Below, one piece after another: positions 4,896-26,840 of a stretch of 35,309 nt of DNA; positions within the stretch are counted from its first letter, which is position 1; every line of letters starts with the position of its first letter. Under the pieces are notes generated by a model, which saw only the letters and a program-made list of their open reading frames with translations, was not told the origin of the DNA and did not search any database. Origin of the DNA: a virus (taxonomy: Duplodnaviria; Heunggongvirae; Uroviricota; Caudoviricetes); IMG/VR virus record IMGVR_UViG_2526164613_000023. The stretch is one strand, 5' to 3'. Position numbers and translations under genes: made by a program.

Positions 4896-7718
4896 ATGAC
4901 GGCAGAGTACATCAGGGACTGGCAACAACCGCGCCACGCAGTGGGGCGTGAAGGAACGGGGATCCCCGCTCCTGAATCCGCGCTTTCCTCCTGGCTGGAT
5001 GCCTACCGGGCAGAGAACGAACGCCGCCAGGAAATGGCTGATGCGGCGTTTTCCGCCACGCCGCTGGGCAACCTGATTAATAAAAGCCTGGACGCACAGG
5101 AAAAACAGGACAAAACCATCACACTGGCAGGAGACGCCAGAAAACAGGCACGTGGCGCGGTGGATGAAGCCATGGCCTCGCTGCGCCTGCTGCCGTCCTA
5201 TCTGCGCGATCCGCTTATTCGCCACCTCTCCTTCCTGCGCAAAAAACAGGAAGCCGATCGTCAGAAAGGAAAAAACGCCAGGCAGGCAGAACGCTATGCG
5301 CGTGGGACCCTGCGCAAAATATTCGAACGTCTGGAGCGCACCGATCACCGCTGGGTGACACCGGGTTATCGCTCCCTTGCCGGACGCGAACGCCTGGACG
5401 ATTTGCTTTACCTGCCGCAGCTCAACAAACACCAGATACAGACGCTGGCCACCATGACGGCGGCGATGTTCAGCAGCACCTTCGAAAAACTCTGCGATGG
5501 CTTTGGCGCGACCGATGGCGAGCTGACCATGGATGTAACCATGAAGGCGCATCAGATGCTGGCCCGCATGGCGTTACACCTGCATGCCATGCCTCCACAT
5601 TATGACGCACTGACAACAGACAAAGACCGGAGGAACGAACCGGACACGGAGCTGCTGCCGGGTGCAATCCTTCGCCTGACCTGTGCGGAATGGTGGAAAC
5701 GCAAACTGTGGCTGTTACGTTGCGAGTGGCGGGAAGAACAACTCCGCGCCGCCTGTCTGGTTTCCAGAAAAACATCACCCTATCTGAGCCAGGACGCGTT
5801 AAGCGAGTTTCGCGCACAGCGCGAGAAAACACGCGATTTCCTGAAAAGTTTCATGCTGGAAAATGAAGACGGGTTCACGATTGATCTCGAGACGGTGTAT
5901 TACGCGGGAGTAAGTAACCCGGTTCACCGTAAAGCAGAAATGATGGCCACCATGAAGGGGCTGGAACTTCTGGCCGAAGCCCGTGGCGACAAAGCGGTGT
6001 TTCTGACTGTCACCTGCCCGTCAAAATACCACGCCACAACGGAGAACGGTCATCCGAATCCCAAATGGAACGGGGCCACAATGCGCGACTCCAGCGATTA
6101 CCTGGTTAACACGTTTTTTGCGGCGGTCCGCAAAAAACTGAACCGCGACGGCCTGCGCTGGTATGGCATCCGCACGGTGGAGCCTCATCATGACGGCACC
6201 GTGCACTGGCATATGATGGTCTTTGCACATCCGGAAGAAATCGACACCATTGTGTCCCATACCCGCGATATTGCGATTCAGGAAGACCGCCACGAGCTGG
6301 GCAATGATATTACTCCGCGCTTTAAGGTGGAGTATGTCGACGGCTCAAAAGGCACGCCAACCAGCTACATCGCCACCTACATCGGAAAGAACCTGGACAG
6401 CCGCGCCGTGGATGGCATCGACCCGAAAACGGGCAAGCCACGCGTGGACCACGAAACCGGAAAATCAATGGCCGAGAGCGTGGAACGCGCCATCGGCTGG
6501 GCGCGTCTTCACCGCATCCGCCAGTTCCAGTTCCTTGGTATCCCCTCCCGTCAGGTATGGCGTGAACTCCGCCGCCTTGCCAGTCAGATGGCCCGCAACC
6601 CGGAAGGTCCACAACGTCTGGAAAATGACGCAATGGATGCGGTACTCGCTGCCGCTGATGCCGGGTGTTTTGCCACCTACATTGAGAAACAGGGTGGCGT
6701 ACTTGTTCCACGCAAAGACTACCTGATTCGCACAGCCTACGACCTCGCAGATGAGCTGAACGATTACGGCGAACAGAGTGTACAGATTTACGGGATCTGG
6801 TCACCACTCATCGGGGAATCCTCCCGTGTGTGCACGCACCCGGATAACTGGAAGCTGGTAAGACGTAAACCGGAACAGGAAGGTAGCGCCCACGAAAATG
6901 GTTTTGACCTTCAGGGCGGCCCTGCCGCCCCTTGGACTCGTGGCAATAACTGTCCCCGTGTACAAGAAACGGACAACAACGGGACAGAACAGCCGGAAGA
7001 ACGGCCAGCACCGTGGCCGCAGCTTCCTGACGGCGTTGACGTGAATGAATGGATGCGCTCACTGAAACGGCACGAACGCCGGGCGCTGATGCGTTCGCTG
7101 CGTGACAAACAGGCAAAAAACAGCAGTGATGAAATGCAGAACTGGACACAGAGCCGCAAACAGCCACAGCCTTTGCCTGATAACCACGAGTTACTCGCTA
7201 AAGAATGGCGGGAGTCTGCTGAATCTCTCGGCCTGCATATTGGTGAACAGCAGATGCAGCACCTGTTACGGGGCGGCAGTCTGTACGTTGACGGCAGCAT
7301 CATTGCACCGCAGGGATTTGAAATTGTACGCAAACCGGATACCCGCCCGGACAGCCGAATCACGCAGCTCTGGCAACGCCTGAGTCGTAATCACGGCGTA
7401 AGCAGCACGGAGATCCGCCATAACCCGGTCGCCAGCTATCTGGAACAACTAGAGGCATCAGACCCTGAAGCCGCCGCACGCCTGGCATCCACACTTCAGC
7501 AAGACCAGAACACCATGAAAACACCCGTTACCGTACTTTCTGACATGCTGCGCGCCATCCGCGACGCAGAGCACGCACAGAGAATCAGTGAAACAACTGA
7601 ACGCGCCCGCCGCAAAGCAGACCTGCTGCGGGGTGGCCTGAGCAGTGGAAACAAAAAACAGACAAAAACGGGATTCACAAATCCCGTAAATGAGCAAAAA
7701 ACGCGCCGCGATATATGA
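4896..7718 (+). CDS. A: Rolling-circle replication initiator / endonuclease, P2 gpA-like
   Basis: 940-aa ORF; segments TVHWHMMVFAHPEE and YIATYIGKNLDSRAVDG match the P2 A motifs as recalled; long C-terminal extension relative to P2 A (761 aa). Confidence 0.85.
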   Translation: MTAEYIRDWQQPRHAVGREGTGIPAPESALSSWLDAYRAENERRQEMADAAFSATPLGNLINKSLDAQEKQDKTITLAGDARKQARGAVDEAMASLRLLPSYLRDPLIRHLSFLRKKQEADRQKGKNARQAERYARGTLRKIFERLERTDHRWVTPGYRSLAGRERLDDLLYLPQLNKHQIQTLATMTAAMFSSTFEKLCDGFGATDGELTMDVTMKAHQMLARMALHLHAMPPHYDALTTDKDRRNEPDTELLPGAILRLTCAEWWKRKLWLLRCEWREEQLRAACLVSRKTSPYLSQDALSEFRAQREKTRDFLKSFMLENEDGFTIDLETVYYAGVSNPVHRKAEMMATMKGLELLAEARGDKAVFLTVTCPSKYHATTENGHPNPKWNGATMRDSSDYLVNTFFAAVRKKLNRDGLRWYGIRTVEPHHDGTVHWHMMVFAHPEEIDTIVSHTRDIAIQEDRHELGNDITPRFKVEYVDGSKGTPTSYIATYIGKNLDSRAVDGIDPKTGKPRVDHETGKSMAESVERAIGWARLHRIRQFQFLGIPSRQVWRELRRLASQMARNPEGPQRLENDAMDAVLAAADAGCFATYIEKQGGVLVPRKDYLIRTAYDLADELNDYGEQSVQIYGIWSPLIGESSRVCTHPDNWKLVRRKPEQEGSAHENGFDLQGGPAAPWTRGNNCPRVQETDNNGTEQPEERPAPWPQLPDGVDVNEWMRSLKRHERRALMRSLRDKQAKNSSDEMQNWTQSRKQPQPLPDNHELLAKEWRESAESLGLHIGEQQMQHLLRGGSLYVDGSIIAPQGFEIVRKPDTRPDSRITQLWQRLSRNHGVSSTEIRHNPVASYLEQLEASDPEAAARLASTLQQDQNTMKTPVTVLSDMLRAIRDAEHAQRISETTERARRKADLLRGGLSSGNKKQTKTGFTNPVNEQKTRRDI

Positions 7719-7770
7719 AGCGCGCACAAAACAGGCGAAAACGGGATTTAAAAATCCCGTAAACGATTAA
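7652..7770. repeat. Two copies of a ~45-bp direct repeat, each with a 20-bp palindromic hairpin core
   Basis: Copy 1 at about 7652-7697 (core ACGGGATTcacaAATCCCGT) inside the last codons of gene A; copy 2 at about 7726-7770 (core ACGGGATTtaaaAATCCCGT) between A and parM. Confidence 0.7.
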
Positions 7771-7794
7771 TTAATCAACATAAGGAAAAGCTAC

Positions 7795-8754
7795 ATGAAA
7801 ATTTGTATCGACGACGGCTCCACCAACATCAAGCTGGCATGGACTGAGAACGGCGAACGCCGCAACGCCATCAGCCCGAACAGCTTCAAGTCGGAATGGT
7901 CTGCACCGTTCGGTGGCACGCAGCCCGCGAACTACATGCTTGATGGCGTGCGCTATGGTTTTGATCCGGTCAGCGATCGCTTTGTCCAGACGACCGACAC
8001 GCAATACCAGTACAGCGATGTGAATGTAATCGCCATTCACCACGCGCTGGTCAAATCAGGCATCACGCCACAGGAGGTGGATGTGGTTGTCACCCTGCCA
8101 CTGAGCGAGTATTTCGACACAAACGCACAGCCGGATATGACCAACATCAACCGCAAAAAAGCGAACGTCATGCGCCCGGTGGAGTACCAGAACGGTGAGG
8201 CATTCACTATCCGTAACGTGCGGGTTATGCCTGAATCCATTCCGGCAGGCTTTAAGGCACTGGCTGACATGAGTCCGTTTGAATCCCTGCTGATTGTTGA
8301 TTTGGGCGGAACCACGCTGGATGTGGCAAAGGTTCAGGGGCAACTGGCAGGCATCAGCCAGGTATTTTGCGATCCACACGTAGGCGTTTCACTGATGACC
8401 GATGCCGTACTGTCGGTGATGGCCACTAACGGTATGCGTACCAGTCACCACATCGCCAATACCATTATCGAACATCGCCATGATGAAGCCTGGCTGCGCC
8501 AGCACATCCACAATGTCGCGCATTACGACAGCCTGATGGCGGTTATTCGTGAAAAGGAAGAAACACTGAAACAACGCGTGATTCGCGCGCTGGCGGGGTT
8601 TTCGGGGTACGGTCGGGTGATGGTTGTCGGTGGAGGGGCGGAGATTGTGGCTCCGGCGGTACATGACGCTTACGGCCTCAACGCAAACATTCACACAACA
8701 CCGGAGCCACAGTTTGCCCTGGTTAATGGACTCCATGATATGGACAGGGAGTGA
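7795..8754 (+). CDS. parM: Actin-like plasmid segregation ATPase, ParM/StbA family
   Basis: 319-aa ORF; N-terminus MKICIDDGSTNIKLAW…ISPNSFKSEW… and later …YQYSDVNVIAIHHALVKSG… closely track R1 ParM as recalled; AAGGA RBS. Confidence 0.85.
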   Translation: MKICIDDGSTNIKLAWTENGERRNAISPNSFKSEWSAPFGGTQPANYMLDGVRYGFDPVSDRFVQTTDTQYQYSDVNVIAIHHALVKSGITPQEVDVVVTLPLSEYFDTNAQPDMTNINRKKANVMRPVEYQNGEAFTIRNVRVMPESIPAGFKALADMSPFESLLIVDLGGTTLDVAKVQGQLAGISQVFCDPHVGVSLMTDAVLSVMATNGMRTSHHIANTIIEHRHDEAWLRQHIHNVAHYDSLMAVIREKEETLKQRVIRALAGFSGYGRVMVVGGGAEIVAPAVHDAYGLNANIHTTPEPQFALVNGLHDMDRE

Positions 8755-8758
8755 ACCA

Positions 8759-21927: not shown

Positions 21928-24087
21928 ATGAGTACCACAACACGAAAATTTAAAACCATTATCACTGATACTGGTGCCAAAAAATTAGCTCAGGCAGCCG
22001 CGCCAGATGGTAATCCTGTCCGCCTGACTCACATGGCCGTGGGCGACGGTGGCGGCACGTTGCCCACACCAGACAGTAAGCAGACCCGTCTGGTGCATGA
22101 GGTGTGGCGACATACTGTTAATCGCGTCATCCTGGACGCAACACATCAGAACCGCATTATTGCGGAGCTGGTTATTCCTCCTGAAACGGGCGGATTCTGG
22201 ATCCGGGAAATTGGTGTATTTGATGAGCACGGCGATTTGATCGCGGTGGGCAATACTGCCGAAAGTTACAAACCAACCGTTGCCGAAGGATCCGGACGTG
22301 CACAAACATTTCGCACCATTCTGACCGTATCCAGCACTGCCACCGTGGCGCTTACCGTGGATAACACCATGGTTATGGCCACAGTGGATTACGTGAATGA
22401 CAAACTGAAAGAACATGAACAGTCACGACGTCACCCGGACGCCTCGCTGACCGCAAAAGGCTTTGTTCAACTCAGTAGCGCCACCAACAGCACGTCTGAA
22501 GCACTGGCCGCAACGCCGAAAGCGGTCAAGGCAGCCTATGACCTTGCTATCGGGAAATATACCGCACAGGACGCCACTACAGCGCGGAAAGGACTTGTCC
22601 AGCTCAGTAGCGCCACCAACAGCGATTCAGAAACGCTGGCGGCAACACCAAAGGCGGTAAAGGCAACATATGACCTTGCTAACGGGAAATATACTGCGCA
22701 GGATGCCACCACAGCGCGGAAAGGCCTTGTCCAGCTCAGTAGCGCCACCAACAGCACGTCTGAAGCACTGGCCGCAACACCGAAAGCGGTAAAGACAGCA
22801 TATGACCTTGCTAACGGGAAATATACCGCTCAGGACGCTACGACAGCACAAAAAGGGATTGTCCAGCTAAGCAGCGCGACTAACAGCACATCTGAAACGC
22901 TTGCCGCGACACCGAAAGCAGTGAAAGCAGCTAATGACAATGCGAATGGTCGGGTACCTTCTGCCCGTAAGGTGAATGGTAAGGCGCTTTCAGCGGATAT
23001 TACACTGACGCCGAAAGATATTGGTACGCTTAACTCAACAACTATGTCATTCAGCGGTGGTGCTGGTTGGTTCAAATTAGCAACGGTAACCATGCCGCAG
23101 GCGAGTTCTGTTGTTTCAATTACGTTGATTGGTGGCGCGGGATTTAACGTGGAGTCACCTCAACAGGCAGGTATATCTGAACTTGTTCTTCGTGCGGGAA
23201 ATGGAAATCCAAAAGGTCTTACTGGTGCGTTATGGCGACGGACATCGGTTGGATTTACTAATTTTGCATGGGTGAATACATCCGGTGATACCTATGATGT
23301 TTATGTTGAAATAGGTAATTACGCCACAGGTGTTAATATTCAATGGGATTATACCAGTAACGCCAGCGTAACGATTCATACTTCACCAGCATATTCTGCT
23401 AATAAGCCGGAAGGATTAACGGACGGTTCTGTTTATTCGCTGTATATTTCGCCTCATGAACTTTATCCGGTTGGCGCACCGATCCCTTGGCCATCAGATA
23501 CCGTTCCGTCTGGTTATGCCCTGATGCAGGGGCAGACTTTTGACAAATCTGCATACCCGAAACTTGCAGCCGCTTATCCGTCAGGCGTGATCCCTGATAT
23601 GCGTGGCTGGACGATTAAGGGCAAGCCCGCCAGTGGTCGTGCCGTATTGTCTCAGGAACAGGACGGCATTAAATCGCACACCCACAGCGCCAGCGTATCC
23701 AGTACGGATTTGGGTACGAAAACCACATCGTCGTTTGATTACGGGACGAAAACAACCTCACTATTTGACTATGGGACCAAAACTACCAGTAACGCCGGGA
23801 GTCACACGCATTCAATACCAACATCAGATGGTGCAAACCAGGGGGGGGAAATTCCACTGACATCTGGGCGTCTGGCAACTCAATATACATCAGCAACAAC
23901 AGGTTCCTCTGGCTCACATTCTCATACTGTAGGTATTGTTTCTCATCAGCACACTGTCGGTATTGGTGCACACACGCACTCGGTTGCGATTGGCTCACAT
24001 GGACACACCATCACCGTTAACGCTGCTGGTAACGCGGAAAACACCGTCAAAAACATCGCATTTAACTATATTGTGAGGCTTGCATGA
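21928..24087 (+). CDS. H: Tail fibre protein, P2 gpH-like, with tandem fibre repeats and a His-rich HxH tip
   Basis: 719 aa; four 44-aa (132-bp) tandem repeats of the KG(F/L/I)VQLSSATNS…TPKAVK…YDLA…[11 protein letters not shown] type; C-terminal SHSHT…SHQHT…AHTHS…SHGHT motifs. Confidence 0.9.
22456..22950 (+). repeat. About four copies of a 132-bp in-frame tandem repeat inside the tail fibre gene
   Basis: Repeat units start at 22456, 22588, 22720 and 22852; the last copy diverges. Confidence 0.85.
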
Positions 24088-24986
24088 TTACGCTCATTCT
24101 TTCTGCACCAGTAACAGAAATGGCTGAAGCATTTAAGCGGGTATTTGCAAACGCAGATAATGTGAATATTGTCGGAAAGCCATTTGAAACAATCAGAGAA
24201 TTTGACTGTATGGTAAGTGCGGCAAATAGTTTCGGCCTGATGGATGGCGGTGTTGATGCCGCCATTACCGCATTCTTCGGTACTCAGTTACAGTCCCGCG
24301 TTCAGAATCATATTCTTCGTGAATATCTAGGCGAGCAGCCTGTAGGATCTGCGTTTGTTATTGAAACGGGGCATAATCATCACCCCTGGCTGGTACATGC
24401 GCCAACAATGCGTGTTCCGCTGACAATTGACGGAACAGACGCTGTATATAACGCAACCTGGGCCGCTCTGCTTGCCATCTTTCAGCACAATAAAAACGCA
24501 ACGACAGACAGGAAAATAAAGACGGTGGTATTCCCTGCGATGGGGGCTGGATGTGGTCAGGTACCGTTTGAAAGTGTTGCCCGCCAGATGAAGCAGGCCT
24601 GGGATAACTTTAATAAAAAAACAGAATCAATTAACTGGGAATACGCACAATCCCGCCAGTCGGCAGTATTTGGCACATATGCATACTGTCCGGGTAATTC
24701 TGTTTGCCGTTATGCGGATGCTAAATATATTGGATGCGGCGATTATCGGACGTATTGCTCACGTTCCGGGCAGGTCTGTATTAACCCTGAACATCAGGCT
24801 GATGATGTACTGATACAACATCAGGCTAATAACCGGTTTCGCCCTGATTCGCATATACACCGGATTAATCCAGAAAATCCCGTAGGTAATGTCACCTCTG
24901 GCGCACATAGCCACAGAAGTAGCATCGTTATTGGTGCTCACACCCATACGCTCAATAAACAATATTCTGTCTCTGATATTAAGTAG
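24084..24986 (+). CDS. Macro-domain protein (ADP-ribose binding/hydrolase fold) with a tail-fibre-like HxH C-terminus
   Basis: 300 aa; start overlaps the H stop (ATGA) with a GAGG RBS; …[21 protein letters not shown]… and …[24 protein letters not shown]… align with the macro-domain core of E. coli YmdB and Af1521 as recalled; C-terminus …[18 protein letters not shown]… resembles the H tip at protein and nucleotide level. Confidence 0.75.
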
Positions 24987-24994
24987 AGGTGAAC

Positions 24995-25573
24995 ATGGAT
25001 TTCAGAATGAGTGAACAACCACGGACCATAAAAATTTATAATCTGCTGGCCGGAACTAATGAATTTATTGGTGAAGGTGACGCATACATTCCGCCTCATA
25101 CAGGTCTGCCAGCAAACAGTACCGATATTGCACCGCCAGATATTCCGGCTGGCTTCGTGGCTGTTTTCAACAGTAATGAGGCATCGTGGCATCTCGTTGA
25201 AGATCATCGGGGTAAAACGGTTTATGACGTGGCTTCCGGCGACGCGTTATTTATTTCTGAACTCGGTCCGTTACCGGAAAATGTTACCTGGTTGTCGCCG
25301 GATGGAGAGTGTCAGAAGTGGAACGGCACATCCTGGGCGAAAGATGCAGAAGCAGAAAAACTGTTTCGGGTACGGGAGGCAGAAGAAACAAAAAACAGCC
25401 TGATGCAGGTAGCCAGTGAGCATATTGCGCCACTTCAGGATGCCGTAGATTTGGATATTGCGACGGAGGAAGAGGCATCGTTACTGGCTGCATGGAAGAC
25501 ATATCGGGTATTGTTGAATCGTGTTGATACAACAGTAGCAGCGGATGTTGAGTGGCCAGTCGCCCCACAATAA
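24995..25573 (+). CDS. G: Tail fibre assembly chaperone, P2 gpG-like
   Basis: C-terminal …[21 protein letters not shown]…EWPVAPQ matches P2 G …EERARLESWERYSVLVSRVD…EWPEMPQ as recalled. Confidence 0.85.
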
Positions 25574-25579
25574 AAAGAA

Positions 25580-25609
25580 AAAGCCATCGACAGAAATATC
25601 GATGGCTTT
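25580..25609. terminator. Bidirectional Rho-independent terminator between G and the acetyltransferase gene
   Basis: Perfect 11-bp stem AAAGCCATCGA-cagaaata-TCGATGGCTTT; T-rich tract on the minus-strand side and a moderately T-rich tract on the plus side. Confidence 0.65.
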
Positions 25610-25616
25610 ATGTACT

Positions 25617-26222
25617 CTATTTATACAATACAACACCACTCTTTTTAGTTATATATGTGCAGTTTGATGGTATATCTTTATTTATAAAAGACATTGCACC
25701 TATTTTTACATTATCCCCAATTTTACGTGATAATCCAATGATGCAACAATTAGCTCCGATATCAACGTTACTACCAATTTTTACTCTTGAACTAGGCATA
25801 TCACCATCTATCTGTCCAATGGTAGTATTCTGTCGTAATACCAGATTTTCACCCGCATCAACAGCAAAATGAACAACAATTCCAGCATGATGGGGAATTG
25901 TCAACCCTTTTCCAATATTTGCGCCCAATCCTATTTCACAACCAAACTTGTTAATTATTTTACTGTTTAACTTTTTGGCTGCTTTCTTATGTAATTTATT
26001 ACCATTAATATACATTTCGTTAGCCAACCGCCACCAGAAAAGGAAATTCCGGTTACGCTGCTTTTTCTCTCTTAAAAGCCTCCAGATATCCATACGTTTC
26101 CGCCGAATTACTTCATGTTTCCAGAAGTTTTTTAAATTAGTAGAGTTTCCAAATAAAACAAAGTGAATTGCCATTAAGTAAGATAGCACGATAATCTCCT
26201 TAATTATTATTTCAGACCACAC
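25617..26222 (-). CDS. Hexapeptide-repeat (left-handed beta-helix) acetyltransferase, serine-acetyltransferase-like; cargo at the Z/fun position
   Basis: 201-aa ORF in a strongly AT-rich island; …GCEIGLGANIGKGLTIPHHAGIVV…IGSNVDIGANCCIIG…IGDNVKIGAMSFI… shows hexapeptide periodicity typical of CysE-like acetyltransferases; start codon uncertain (internal Met candidates). Confidence 0.65.
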   Translation of the reverse strand: MWSEIIIKEIIVLSYLMAIHFVLFGNSTNLKNFWKHEVIRRKRMDIWRLLREKKQRNRNFLFWWRLANEMYINGNKLHKKAAKKLNSKIINKFGCEIGLGANIGKGLTIPHHAGIVVHFAVDAGENLVLRQNTTIGQIDGDMPSSRVKIGSNVDIGANCCIIGLSRKIGDNVKIGAMSFINKDIPSNCTYITKKSGVVLYK

Positions 26223-26345
26223 ATGTTATAAGGTTAAGAGATTATAAAATCCTGTTATTTGTTATTCAAAAACAATTTTCTGAGAAGGACATACAACAGC
26301 AAGTCGCCAGTCACCTTCATCAGGAAATTGGCGACATACGTTAAA

Positions 26346-26840
26346 TCAGAGCAGCCCCTTAACTGAGCTGGCCGCGCTATTAAGGGATGATGTCACCTTA
26401 TCTTTGAAGCCGGACAGCATATCGCTGAACGATGAGGATTGCAGGCGCTCCCGCAAATCCTCATCACAGCGTTCAAGAGTCAGTGAAAATTCTATCTTTT
26501 TCGCCTTACCGTAGCGATCAAACTCGGAGCGGGTCGTATTCGTTCCGGTCAGGACATACATGCCGTAAATCTGCCCGACGCCATCAATCAAAGGCCAAGG
26601 ACGTCCTGTATATGCCTGCGTGGTCAACAACGACAGCGACACTTCGCCACCAGTAATCTCAGGATAAAGAACACCAGAAAGAACGATGCGATCATCACCT
26701 GCACCGATATACTGCCAGCTTGCTGAACGGTTAACGCGTTCATTTTTCACATGTCGCCAGCTTTTGTTTTGCTGTAGCTGCTGATGCGGCAACGTGCGCA
26801 GCTCAAAAACAAACATGCCGTAGATCATCATCATGGCCAT
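26346..26840 (-). CDS. U: Tail protein, P2 gpU-like
   Basis: 164 aa (P2 U about 159 aa), immediately downstream of the tape-measure gene on the minus strand. Confidence 0.75.
   Translation of the reverse strand: MAMMMIYGMFVFELRTLPHQQLQQNKSWRHVKNERVNRSASWQYIGAGDDRIVLSGVLYPEITGGEVSLSLLTTQAYTGRPWPLIDGVGQIYGMYVLTGTNTTRSEFDRYGKAKKIEFSLTLERCDEDLRERLQSSSFSDMLSGFKDKVTSSLNSAASSVKGLL

What the first reader, a model, noticed from the sequence alone, without database searches (positions are those of the whole stretch)
25574..26345. Hexapeptide acetyltransferase in an AT-rich island at the Z/fun position
A CysE-like left-handed beta-helix acetyltransferase sits, with its own terminator, where P2 carries the Z/fun exclusion gene. 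A phage-borne acetyltransferase here may O-acetylate a surface polysaccharide (receptor masking or serotype conversion) or act on a metabolite. It also lies next to the macro-domain gene; macro domains deacetylate O-acetyl-ADP-ribose in other systems, but any functional link is speculative.
Basis: partly seen in the sequence, partly recalled or inferred. Interest (0 to 1): 0.5.

Follow-up and report, generated by a model that had tools for sequence, protein, structure and literature searches.

The report
Tail-fibre-linked phage sugar acetyltransferase gene
A small, self-contained prophage gene labelled "serine acetyltransferase" is real, but it lacks the features of a cysteine-pathway enzyme; it travels with the phage's tail-fibre genes and most likely acetylates the cell's lipopolysaccharide to change the surface that phages bind.

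Summary
Window 25617-26189 (-) encodes a 190-aa left-handed beta-helix acetyltransferase. It sits in a 35-39% GC island and has its own sigma-70-like promoter, Shine-Dalgarno site and strong terminator. It is under purifying selection (dN/dS about 0.12-0.17) and occurs in 530 of 5426 complete E. coli genomes.

It has the serine acetyltransferase (SAT) fold but is not CysE. It scores far below the CysE, WcaB and EpsC cut-offs, lacks the serine-binding residues and has no C-terminal tail.

The gene is part of a portable fibre tip - tfa (tail-fibre assembly gene) - acetyltransferase cassette. That cassette occurs in P2-like, P1-like and Mu-like prophages and in prophages of other types. The acetyltransferase and tfa lie tail to tail and diverge together.

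Family members keep company with lipopolysaccharide (LPS) core genes. One is the last gene of a waa operon in Leminorella. Others are paired with GT25, GT9 or HtrL genes in prophages.

Best reading, inferred and not shown: a lysogenic-conversion O-acetyltransferase acting on the LPS core and masking a phage receptor. O-antigen serotype conversion is unlikely, because carriers include O157, O55, O84, O103, O111 and O104. The macro-domain link is not supported. No functional study was found.

The parts
25617..26189 (-). Acetyltransferase CDS: 190 aa, GTG start at 26189, stop codon at 25619-25617. SAT-fold protein with a helical N-domain (about residues 1-82) and a left-handed beta-helix (about 83-185).
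26196..26201 (-). Shine-Dalgarno AAGGAG, 6 nt upstream of the GTG start.
   Evidence: Read directly from the sequence.
26241..26269 (-). Sigma-70-like promoter TTGAAT-17 nt-TATAAT (10 of 12 matches), about 50 nt upstream of the start codon.
   Evidence: Consensus scan. This is a prediction only. Promoter-like sites are not enriched in this AT-rich stretch (4 found against 4.4 expected).
25570..25609 (-). Intrinsic terminator of the acetyltransferase gene: 13-bp stem, 4-nt loop, T-run. The same palindrome forms a hairpin on the + strand just after the tfa stop, so it is a shared, two-way terminator.
   Evidence: folding gives dG -19.3 (z -6.4) on the - strand and -16.1 (z -5.7) on the + strand.
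26294..26343 (-). Hairpin directly after the stop of gene U, at the end of the tail operon. It separates late tail transcription from the acetyltransferase promoter.
   Evidence: Folding dG -21.2 kcal/mol, z -4.5. The T-run is weak, so read-through from the late operon is possible (inference).
25574..26345 (.). AT-rich island between the tfa stop and the U stop. In P88 the same slot holds the alternative tfa', fibre' and DNA invertase.
   Evidence: GC 0.35-0.39; P88 layout; homology to P88 resumes at 26340. At least 80% of the island is matched in one place in 510 E. coli genomes.
24995..25573 (+). Tail-fibre assembly (chaperone) gene tfa, the P2 G analogue. It is the tail-to-tail partner of the acetyltransferase.
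   Evidence: Pfam Caudo_TAP 7e-40. 67 of 80 IMG/VR loci have tfa convergent within about 60 nt. Acetyltransferase and tfa identities co-vary, Pearson 0.97 over 44 distinct pairs.
22950..26340 (.). Mosaic host-range cassette replaced relative to P88: fibre C-terminal tip, inserted macro gene, tfa and acetyltransferase.
   Evidence: blastn window against P88 and against P1-like JL22. P88 homology ends near 22950 and resumes at 26340. JL22 shares 23019-24091 (83.5%) and 25001-26188 (91.6%) but not 24092-25000.

Best explanation
The gene is a moron, an independently transcribed prophage cargo gene with its own promoter-like site, ribosome-binding site and terminator. It encodes a soluble, acetyl-CoA-dependent O-acetyltransferase with the serine-acetyltransferase fold. 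It is not a serine acetyltransferase.

The most likely mechanism is as follows. In the lysogen the enzyme acts at the cytoplasmic face of the inner membrane. There it O-acetylates a sugar of the nascent LPS core, or a core-linked intermediate. Its nearest characterised relative, WcaB, acts in the same compartment on the colanic acid repeat unit. The modified LPS is then exported and changes the structure that LPS-binding tail fibres recognise. This gives superinfection exclusion or receptor masking (lysogenic conversion), probably against phages carrying the same kind of fibre tip that travels next to the gene.

Shown here: gene reality and purifying selection; fold; a conserved catalytic His and acidic residue; absence of CysE-specific features; the moron layout; long-term linkage with tfa and the fibre tip across unrelated phage backbones; and recurrent neighbourhood with LPS-core genes.

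Inferred: the acceptor (LPS core), expression in the lysogen, and the phage-exclusion phenotype.

For: (2) LPS-core company. A family member nested inside the phage clades (53% identical to the phage phiNP copy) is the last gene of the Leminorella waa operon. The order is WaaP, GT4, GT8, WaaY, a WaaZ homologue (65% identical to K-12 WaaZ), then the acetyltransferase, convergent with WaaL. In Xenorhabdus prophages the gene is immediately followed on the same strand, 58 nt downstream, by a GT25 'LPS biosynthesis' glycosyltransferase (1.6e-35). In a Morganella prophage it lies about 630 nt upstream of a co-oriented GT9 heptosyltransferase-family gene. In two IMG/VR phages an HtrL/YibB homologue lies beside it; it is 54% identical to K-12 HtrL, whose gene borders the waa region. 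In Rosenbergiella it is divergent from an AT3-SGNH acyltransferase gene, a family I recall as OafA-type glycan O-acetyltransferases.

(3) Fibre linkage. The gene is convergent with tfa or the fibre gene in a Xuanwuvirus (this window), in P1-like phage-plasmids inside the cin-associated fibre segment, and in canonical-order P2-like contigs. The same holds in phiNP, Hafnia yong2, a Mu-like Salmonella prophage, and Proteus, Morganella, Xenorhabdus and Buttiauxella prophages. Acetyltransferase and tfa co-diverge, and fibre tip, tfa and acetyltransferase move together between P2-like and P1-like backbones.

(4) The acceptor must be conserved, because carriers span O157, O55, O84, O103, O111 and O104.

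(5) Moron layout.
Against: No experiment of any kind was run; the acceptor is inferred only from gene neighbourhood. LPS-gene company was seen in five or six of the roughly 25 distinct contexts inspected. Other copies sit alone on EPEC bfp plasmids, on islands, at prophage ends beside hok or hicAB, or among housekeeping genes.

The GT9 hit is modest (32.6 bits), and the function of HtrL is unknown. The region downstream of tail-fibre genes is a general cargo hotspot in temperate phages, so adjacency alone is weak evidence. The co-divergence statistic uses non-independent pairs dominated by a few clusters.

To my knowledge (memory, not checked here) no O-acetyl substituent has been reported in E. 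coli core oligosaccharides. The receptor of this particular fibre tip is unknown and could be a protein such as OmpC. The promoter is only a consensus match.
Confidence: 0.4

Rival explanations
1. The enzyme does O-acetylate an envelope glycan, but not the LPS core. The acceptor would be another widely conserved polymer built on undecaprenyl phosphate, such as colanic acid, enterobacterial common antigen, or a sugar shared by several O-units or capsules. The outcome would still be surface remodelling (phage, immune or biofilm phenotype).
For: The nearest characterised relative is WcaB, the colanic acid acetyltransferase. RefSeq product names in the K-12 colanic acid cluster show acetylated Und-PP-linked intermediates. 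The top NCBIfam hit is the EPS-cluster enzyme EpsC. In Rosenbergiella the neighbour is an AT3-SGNH acyltransferase gene, a family I recall as O-antigen O-acetyltransferases. In Intestinirhabdus a member lies beside ugd and the arn operon.
Against: None of the contexts inspected is a cps, wca, wec or O-antigen cluster. The biosynthetic partners seen (waa operon, GT25, GT9, HtrL) are all core-associated. Scores against WcaB, WcaF and EpsC are far below their cut-offs. An O-antigen-specific role does not fit the spread across six O-serogroups.
Confidence: 0.2
2. It is a genuine serine O-acetyltransferase, as most database records call it. It would be an auxiliary metabolic gene that raises O-acetylserine and cysteine supply or CysB signalling in the lysogen, possibly free of cysteine feedback.
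For: The overall fold and the catalytic His and acidic residue are those of SAT. PGAP and UniRef name it serine (O-)acetyltransferase. Published phage annotations repeat that name (PMC9603915, PMC6456863).
Against: The TIGR01172 cysE score is 62 bits against a cut-off of 210.65, and PRK11132 scores 36.6 against 397. Positions aligned with the CysE substrate-binding residues differ: D157 is Pro99, and R192/H193 fall in a variable loop with insertions and deletions (the residue roles come from my knowledge of the SAT structures). The N-domain is about 80 aa rather than about 140. There is no C-terminal CysK-binding tail; the protein ends ...VVLYK against CysE ...GDGI. No cysK or cysM neighbour was seen in any context. 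Some RefSeq records now call it only 'LbetaH domain-containing protein'.
Confidence: 0.07
3. The target is not a glycan. The enzyme would acetylate a small molecule (xenobiotic, antibiotic, signalling nucleotide, ADP-ribose derivative), a protein or a nucleic-acid component. It would then act as a defence, counter-defence or detoxification gene, possibly together with the neighbouring macro-domain protein.
Against: There is no PADLOC match. The sequence and fold place it in the CysE/WcaB branch, not the Vat/CatB/Maa branch. The macro gene assorts independently of it. Known O-acetyl-ADP-ribose arises from sirtuin reactions, not from LbH enzymes (my knowledge). This reading does not explain the recurrent LPS-core partners.
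Confidence: 0.13
4. The linkage with tfa carries no functional meaning. The gene would simply hitch-hike because the conserved 3' end of tfa is a recombination anchor at a general cargo hotspot, and its benefit to the host would be unrelated to phage receptors.
For: Cargo is commonly placed downstream of tail-fibre genes: fun(Z) in P2 and the invertase cassette in P88. Homology with JL22 ends exactly at the start codon, and each backbone has a different upstream region. Many family members are not next to fibre genes.
Against: Linkage persists down to 46% acetyltransferase and 36% tfa identity, across many phage backbones and several genera. This is hard to obtain by repeated independent insertion. 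This rival concerns the linkage only and proposes no biochemical function.
Confidence: 0.15

Closest known systems
WcaB, colanic acid O-acetyltransferase of E. coli (NF007564 / TIGR04016)
   Same: Short CysE-like LbH protein (162 aa) with a reduced helical N-domain. It is cytoplasmic and acetyl-CoA dependent and acts during assembly of the colanic acid repeat unit. It is the nearest characterised relative in the NJ tree.
   Different: Identity is only about 25%. Scores are 55.8 and 54.4 bits against cut-offs of 196 and 194.65. The family signatures differ: FLFWWRLANEMY and RQNTTIG here against VWRKKNVL and RHGVTIG in WcaB. It is never found in a wca cluster, and it is carried on phages and plasmids.
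CysE, serine O-acetyltransferase (TIGR01172, EC 2.3.1.30)
   Different: It lacks the aligned serine-binding residues, the first roughly 60 residues of the N-domain and the C-terminal CysK-binding tail. Its score is far below the cut-off, and there is no cysteine-pathway context.
NeuO, polysialic acid O-acetyltransferase of the K1 prophage CUS-3 (PDB 3jqy)
   Different: It belongs to a different LbH subfamily (maltose/galactoside-type, no SAT N-domain) and has a capsule-specific acceptor. As I recall, it is phase-variable through 5' heptanucleotide repeats, and I noticed no such repeat when reading the start of this gene (no repeat search was run). It is not linked to tail-fibre chaperone genes.
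Oac / OafA-type O-antigen acetyltransferases of converting phages (Sf6 and others)
   Same: Lysogenic conversion by O-acetylation of LPS, blocking adsorption of the converting phage (PMC3851460 background; my knowledge).
   Different: These are integral-membrane AT3-family enzymes acting on O-antigen, usually encoded next to int/att. The present gene encodes a soluble LbH enzyme, sits next to tfa, and occurs in hosts with many different O-antigens.
P2 Fun(Z)
   Same: Non-essential cargo gene in the slot after G, transcribed against the flanking late genes, and described as a lysogenic-conversion and exclusion gene.
   Different: No sequence similarity (BLASTP E = 14). It is 528 aa with no Pfam domain. 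In the window the slot is bounded by U and not FI.

Membership tests
Hexapeptide-repeat (left-handed beta-helix) acyltransferase superfamily | Hexapeptide repeats folding into a left-handed beta-helix. | tested here: met
Hexapeptide-repeat (left-handed beta-helix) acyltransferase superfamily | General-base His, with a supporting acidic residue, at the subunit-interface active site. | tested here: met
   H100 aligns with CysE His158 and is conserved in at least 90% of 37 family members. E85 aligns with Asp143 and is E or D in nearly every aligned member. Trimer formation was not modelled.
Serine O-acetyltransferase CysE (TIGR01172 / PRK11132) | Score above the curated equivalog cut-off. | tested here: not met
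   62.4 bits against 210.65, and 36.6 against 397.
Serine O-acetyltransferase CysE (TIGR01172 / PRK11132) | Serine/cysteine-binding residues (E. coli numbering Asp92, Asp157, Arg192, His193; roles from published SAT structures, recalled). | tested here: not met
   Asp157 aligns with Pro99. Arg192/His193 align with S134/R135 in a loop that varies in length and sequence across the family. No counterpart of Asp92 aligns.
Serine O-acetyltransferase CysE (TIGR01172 / PRK11132) | C-terminal tail ending in Ile that binds CysK, and a full N-terminal helical domain of about 140 aa. | tested here: not met
   The protein ends just after the beta-helix (...KKSGVVLYK). Its N-domain is about 80 aa. CysE has about 50 further C-terminal residues ending in GDGI.
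Serine O-acetyltransferase CysE (TIGR01172 / PRK11132) | L-serine acetylation activity, or complementation of a cysE mutant. | not testable with these tools
   Needs an enzyme assay or a genetic complementation test.
WcaB colanic acid acetyltransferase (NF007564 / TIGR04016) | Equivalog score, and location in the wca cluster. | tested here: not met
   55.8 and 54.4 bits against 196 and 194.65. None of the contexts inspected is a wca cluster.
EpsC (NF041874) | Equivalog score. | tested here: not met
   76.2 bits against a cut-off of 150.
Phage moron (independently transcribed lysogenic-conversion cargo) | Own promoter and terminator, atypical base composition, absent from close relatives of the phage. 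| tested here: met
   Promoter-like site and terminator. GC 0.35-0.39 against 0.55. In P88 the same slot holds other genes, and no acetyltransferase homologue was found by DNA or protein search in P88, Chuche or other listed Xuanwuvirus records. Actual transcription in lysogens was not tested.
LPS-core modifying enzyme (proposed role) | Encoded in, or together with, LPS core biosynthesis genes. | tested here: inconclusive
   True for some family members: the Leminorella waa operon and the GT25, GT9 and HtrL partners. Not true for the window copy itself, which stands alone.
LPS-core modifying enzyme (proposed role) | Acetyl group detectable on core oligosaccharide; altered adsorption of LPS-dependent phages. 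| not testable with these tools
   Needs LPS chemistry and phage assays.
P2 Fun(Z) | Sequence homology to Fun(Z). | tested here: not met
   BLASTP best E = 14.
Known anti-phage defence systems (PADLOC-DB 2.0) | Match to a defence-system protein model. | tested here: not met
   No family at E <= 0.01.

The most novel reading that the evidence does not exclude
The fibre tip, its chaperone (tfa) and this acetyltransferase form one portable 'key plus lock-changer' cassette. Each fibre-tip type would travel with an enzyme that acetylates the very LPS-core structure the tip recognises. Any temperate myovirus that acquires the cassette (P2-, P1-, Mu-like and others) would gain a host range and the matching superinfection exclusion at the same time. 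In P1-like phages the gene lies within the cin-associated fibre segment (stf-tfa, acetyltransferase, U', S', cin). If that segment inverts as in P1, expression could even be coupled to the fibre orientation.
Probability: 0.25. Interest if true: 0.65.

Novelty: new member of a known kind. Interest (0 to 1): 0.42.

Why it matters
The gene is present in about one in ten complete E. coli genomes, including many O157:H7 genomes and other Shiga-toxin-producing (STEC) lineages, and on P1-like phage-plasmids. It is almost universally mislabelled as a cysteine-pathway enzyme.

If it acetylates the LPS core, it would be a common and so far unrecognised determinant of phage susceptibility. That bears on phage typing, phage therapy and biocontrol of STEC, and possibly on LPS antigenicity.

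Its stable pairing with tail-fibre chaperone genes across unrelated phages would also give a simple genomic rule for finding receptor-modifying genes next to receptor-binding genes. The hypothesis can be tested cheaply with one cloned gene, LPS mass spectrometry and spot assays.

Tried and rejected
(1) Functional link with the macro-domain gene: rejected. The macro gene is an independent 909-nt insertion and the two genes assort separately.

(2) Genuine CysE: rejected on scores, residues, missing tail and context.

(3) Homology to P2 Fun(Z): none.

(4) Remnant of an invertible segment in the window: no cix/gix-like AAACCNNGGTTT site was found even with one mismatch, and there is no invertase, although P88 has one in this slot.

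(5) Known defence system: no PADLOC hit. PHROGs places the protein only in phrog_2154, 'unknown function'.

(6) A structured RNA in the island: only sub-threshold Rfam noise overlapping the terminator.

(7) Literature: nine full-text searches found no functional study. One paper states that the reason for the gene's presence in P1-like JL22 is unknown (PMC9603915), and another lists it as a 'fitness' cargo gene by annotation only (PMC6456863). A Gifsy defence gene that came up in the searches is an unrelated ATPase.

(8) My small tfa HMM found no tfa near the chromosomal homologues from other genera. Their neighbourhoods are heterogeneous, so those loci are mostly isolated islets.

(9) The distant relatives (30-40% identity) in Clostridia, Bacteroidota, Nitrospira and archaea were not analysed further.
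Full report
**What is there**

The interval 25574-26345 is the gap between two genes: the tail-fibre assembly gene tfa (24995-25573, +; Pfam Caudo_TAP 7e-40) and the P2 gpU-type tail gene (26346-26840, -; Phage_P2_GpU 1.5e-38).

It holds one gene on the minus strand. The longest ORF is 25617..26222. The convincing start is GTG 26189, six bases after AAGGAG. NCBI's PGAP pipeline uses the same boundaries for WP_000954203.1 in O157:H7 genomes.

GC falls to 0.35-0.39 here against about 0.55 on both sides.

A TTGAAT-17-TATAAT promoter-like site lies at 26269-26241 (-). A 13-bp-stem terminator with a T-run lies at 25609-25580 (-). The terminator folds at -19.3 kcal/mol (z -6.4). The same palindrome also folds on the plus strand just after tfa, so the two convergent genes share it. 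A further hairpin (-21.2 kcal/mol) follows the U stop codon.

The gene therefore has the layout of a moron, an independently transcribed cargo gene: promoter, ribosome-binding site, gene, terminator and foreign base composition. The promoter is only a consensus match, and such matches are not enriched in this AT-rich stretch.

**It is a real, selected gene**

- The island is 100% identical in many O157:H7 chromosomes.
- It was found in 530 of 5426 complete E. coli genomes. There are 534 places on chromosomes and 66 on plasmids.
- Against copies that differ by 4-30% in DNA, dN/dS is 0.12-0.17. The value is lowest in the beta-helix part, about 0.05-0.15.
- A protein search found 336 relatives of about 180-200 aa in Escherichia, Salmonella, Citrobacter, Buttiauxella, Pantoea, Xenorhabdus, Morganella, Pseudomonas and other genera. 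Nearly all are named 'serine acetyltransferase'.

**What kind of protein**

NCBIfam places it in the CysE/WcaB/EpsC branch of the hexapeptide acyltransferases. Every equivalog score is far below its cut-off: EpsC 76 against 150, cysE 62 against 211, WcaB 56 against 196. Pfam Hexapep is just under threshold.

In alignments with solved SATs and with E. coli CysE, the following holds:
- H100 matches the catalytic His158 and is nearly invariant in the family.
- E85 matches Asp143.
- Asp157 is replaced by Pro99.
- Arg192/His193 fall in a loop that varies in sequence and length.
- The first part of the N-domain is missing.
- The protein stops right after the helix, with no CysK-binding tail.

The functional roles of the CysE residues come from my knowledge of the SAT crystal structures, not from a tool.

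A rough NJ tree puts the family beside WcaB (25% identity) and not CysE (19%). The family has its own invariant motifs, including FLFWWRLANEMY and RQNTTIG.

In short, it shares the SAT fold and catalytic residues, so the chemistry is presumably the same, but it lacks the features that define a serine acetyltransferase. Some RefSeq records already call it only 'LbetaH domain-containing protein'.

**Where it sits**

The window is a P88-like (Xuanwuvirus) member of the P2 family. The closest phages are Chuche, Shae_phiSM and 500465-2, at 76-85% coverage and 94-97% identity.

In these phages the FI-FII-E-T-U block is inverted relative to P2, so the gene after the slot is U. In P2 itself the slot after G holds fun(Z), on the opposite strand. 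Fun(Z) is unrelated in sequence. In P88 the slot holds an alternative tfa, an alternative fibre end and a DNA invertase. The window has no invertase and no cix-like crossover site.

Comparison with P88 and with the P1-like phage-plasmid JL22 shows that 22950-26340 is a replaced mosaic cassette:
- P88 homology stops near 22950 and resumes at 26340.
- JL22 shares the fibre C-terminal tip (23019-24091, 83.5%).
- JL22 also shares tfa plus terminator plus the whole acetyltransferase, up to its start codon (25001-26188, 91.6%).
- The macro-domain gene (24084-24986) is exactly the segment missing in JL22, so it is a separate insertion.

**Linkage to tail-fibre genes**

In JL22 the gene lies between tfa and U', in the fibre region that ends at the cin invertase gene. 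Many P1-like plasmids carry fibre-tfa-acetyltransferase without the macro gene.

Among the 80 best IMG/VR loci, 67 have tfa convergent within about 60 nt. This includes copies only 45-71% identical to the window protein. Over 44 distinct pairs, acetyltransferase and tfa identities co-vary (Pearson 0.97). Examples are 85/67, 65/45 and 46/36 percent identity to the reference pair. The pairs are not independent, so this is descriptive.

The same tail-to-tail arrangement with a tfa or fibre gene appears in:
- Citrobacter phage phiNP (44% identity);
- Hafnia phage yong2 (35%);
- a Buttiauxella prophage;
- Proteus, Morganella and Xenorhabdus prophages with a different baseplate type;
- a Mu-like Salmonella prophage;
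- contigs with the canonical P2 gene order, where the gene lies exactly between G and FI.

Not every member is fibre-linked. Others sit after the bfp operon on EPEC plasmids, beside an integrase on a Salmonella island, next to hok at a prophage end, after int and an Abi gene in ESSI2_ev040, or alone among housekeeping genes.

**Clues to the acceptor**

1. In Leminorella grimontii a 190-aa family member is the last gene of the LPS core operon. This member carries all the family motifs, is 53% identical to the phiNP phage copy, and is nested among the phage clades. The operon order is WaaP-family kinase, GT4, GT8, WaaY, a WaaZ homologue (65% identical to K-12 WaaZ), then the acetyltransferase 38 nt downstream. 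The operon is convergent with the O-antigen ligase gene.
2. In Xenorhabdus bovienii prophages the gene is immediately followed on the same strand, 58 nt downstream, by a GT25 'LPS biosynthesis' glycosyltransferase (123 bits). The pair is convergent with the fibre gene.
3. In a Morganella prophage it lies about 630 nt upstream of a co-oriented GT9 (heptosyltransferase family) gene (32.6 bits).
4. In two IMG/VR phages an HtrL/YibB homologue lies between it and the tail genes. It is 54% identical to K-12 HtrL, whose gene borders rfaD-waaFCL in K-12.
5. In Rosenbergiella it is divergent from an AT3-SGNH acyltransferase gene, a family I recall as OafA-type glycan O-acetyltransferases.
6. Near-identical copies occur in O157:H7, O55:H7, O84:H7, O103:H2, O111:H8 and O104:H4. 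The acceptor therefore cannot be specific to one O-antigen.

Fibres of the P2 H, P1 S and Mu S class bind the LPS core (established knowledge). The receptor of this particular tip is not known. The tip carries T4 gp37-like HxH repeats.

**Most likely mechanism**

A soluble, probably trimeric enzyme is made in the lysogen. It uses acetyl-CoA to O-acetylate a sugar of the nascent LPS core at the inner face of the membrane. WcaB, the nearest characterised relative, is also a cytoplasmic enzyme and acts during assembly of the Und-PP-linked colanic acid repeat unit (product names). The modified LPS masks a receptor for LPS-binding phages, including phages that carry the co-inherited fibre tip.

The fold, catalytic residues, moron layout, fibre linkage and LPS-gene company are shown. 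The acceptor, the timing of expression and the phenotype are inferred. I give this 0.40. The alternatives are:
- 0.20 that the acceptor is another conserved envelope glycan;
- 0.07 that it is a true serine acetyltransferase;
- 0.13 that the target is not a glycan;
- about 0.15 that the fibre linkage is mere hitch-hiking, with the function left open.

**Macro-domain link**

The link is not supported. Only 13 of 61 IMG/VR acetyltransferase loci with enough flank contain a macro homologue. P1-like copies lack it. Fibre-macro-tfa occurs without the acetyltransferase on other plasmids.

**Comparison with what is known, and novelty**

Phage-borne O-acetyltransferases that convert surface glycans are well known. 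Examples are the Oac/OafA membrane enzymes and the LbH enzyme NeuO of prophage CUS-3.

This family is a different LbH branch. It is uncharacterised and almost everywhere mislabelled. The literature I could search says only that its presence is unexplained (PMC9603915), or lists it as presumed 'fitness' cargo (PMC6456863).

I therefore rate it a new member of a known kind. The fibre-chaperone linkage and the predicted core acceptor are the parts that would be new if confirmed. Interest is moderate (0.42): the gene is widespread, easy to test and relevant to phage susceptibility of STEC, but its chemistry is unsurprising.

Noticed in passing
window 24084-24986 (+): A macro-domain protein gene (Pfam Macro 8e-19; phrog_2613) lies between the fibre gene H and tfa. 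It is a clean 909-nt insertion relative to P1-like JL22. Its C-terminal ~100 aa carry fibre-like HxH motifs ([19 protein letters not shown]). Fibre-macro-tfa also occurs on ~46-kb phage-like plasmids without the acetyltransferase. It could be a virion-associated or anti-ADP-ribosylation function.
   Followed up: partly
window 25338-25536 (+): A full-length match to Rfam family IS009 (RF02111; 191 bits, gathering score 117) lies entirely inside the 3' part of the tfa coding sequence. Either an sRNA candidate is embedded in tfa, or the Rfam family was built on conserved tfa ends.
   Followed up: no
window 9302-10108 (-), in the AT-rich stretch 9001-10500: A 268-aa ORF matches the PADLOC candidate defence protein PDC-M04A (2.6e-35). 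It lies just before the portal and terminase genes, which is the old/tin-type cargo hotspot of P2-like phages.
   Followed up: no
window 33449-34516 (-), AT-rich 33001-34500 (GC 0.37-0.38): A 355-aa ORF with only a weak DUF3800 match (E 0.0035) lies in a second low-GC island downstream of gene D. It is probably another cargo gene.
   Followed up: no
L001 (E. coli O157:H7 PV15-279) 7274-10852: In this strain the tape-measure gene next to the acetyltransferase is truncated by IS1203. The prophage is therefore defective there, while the acetyltransferase island is 100% identical to the window.
   Followed up: no
L002 (phage JL22) 5596-9943: In P1-like phage-plasmids the acetyltransferase lies between tfa and U', in the fibre region that ends at cin. 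It is co-oriented with S'-U', about 450-590 nt downstream of U' depending on the start codon used. If this segment inverts as the P1 C segment does, inversion could change whether late fibre transcription runs into the gene in sense or antisense.
   Followed up: no
L201 (Salmonella enterica CP191473.1) 6261-7537: In a Mu-like prophage the acetyltransferase is preceded, 20 nt upstream and on the same strand, by a 239-aa ORF with no Pfam hit. The pair is convergent with tfa. The ORF could be an unrecognised partner enzyme.
   Followed up: no
L009-L013 (EPEC bfp plasmids) 5001-5594: A 50%-identical family member lies downstream of the bundle-forming-pilus operon on EAF-type virulence plasmids, among IS elements and outside any phage.
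   Followed up: no
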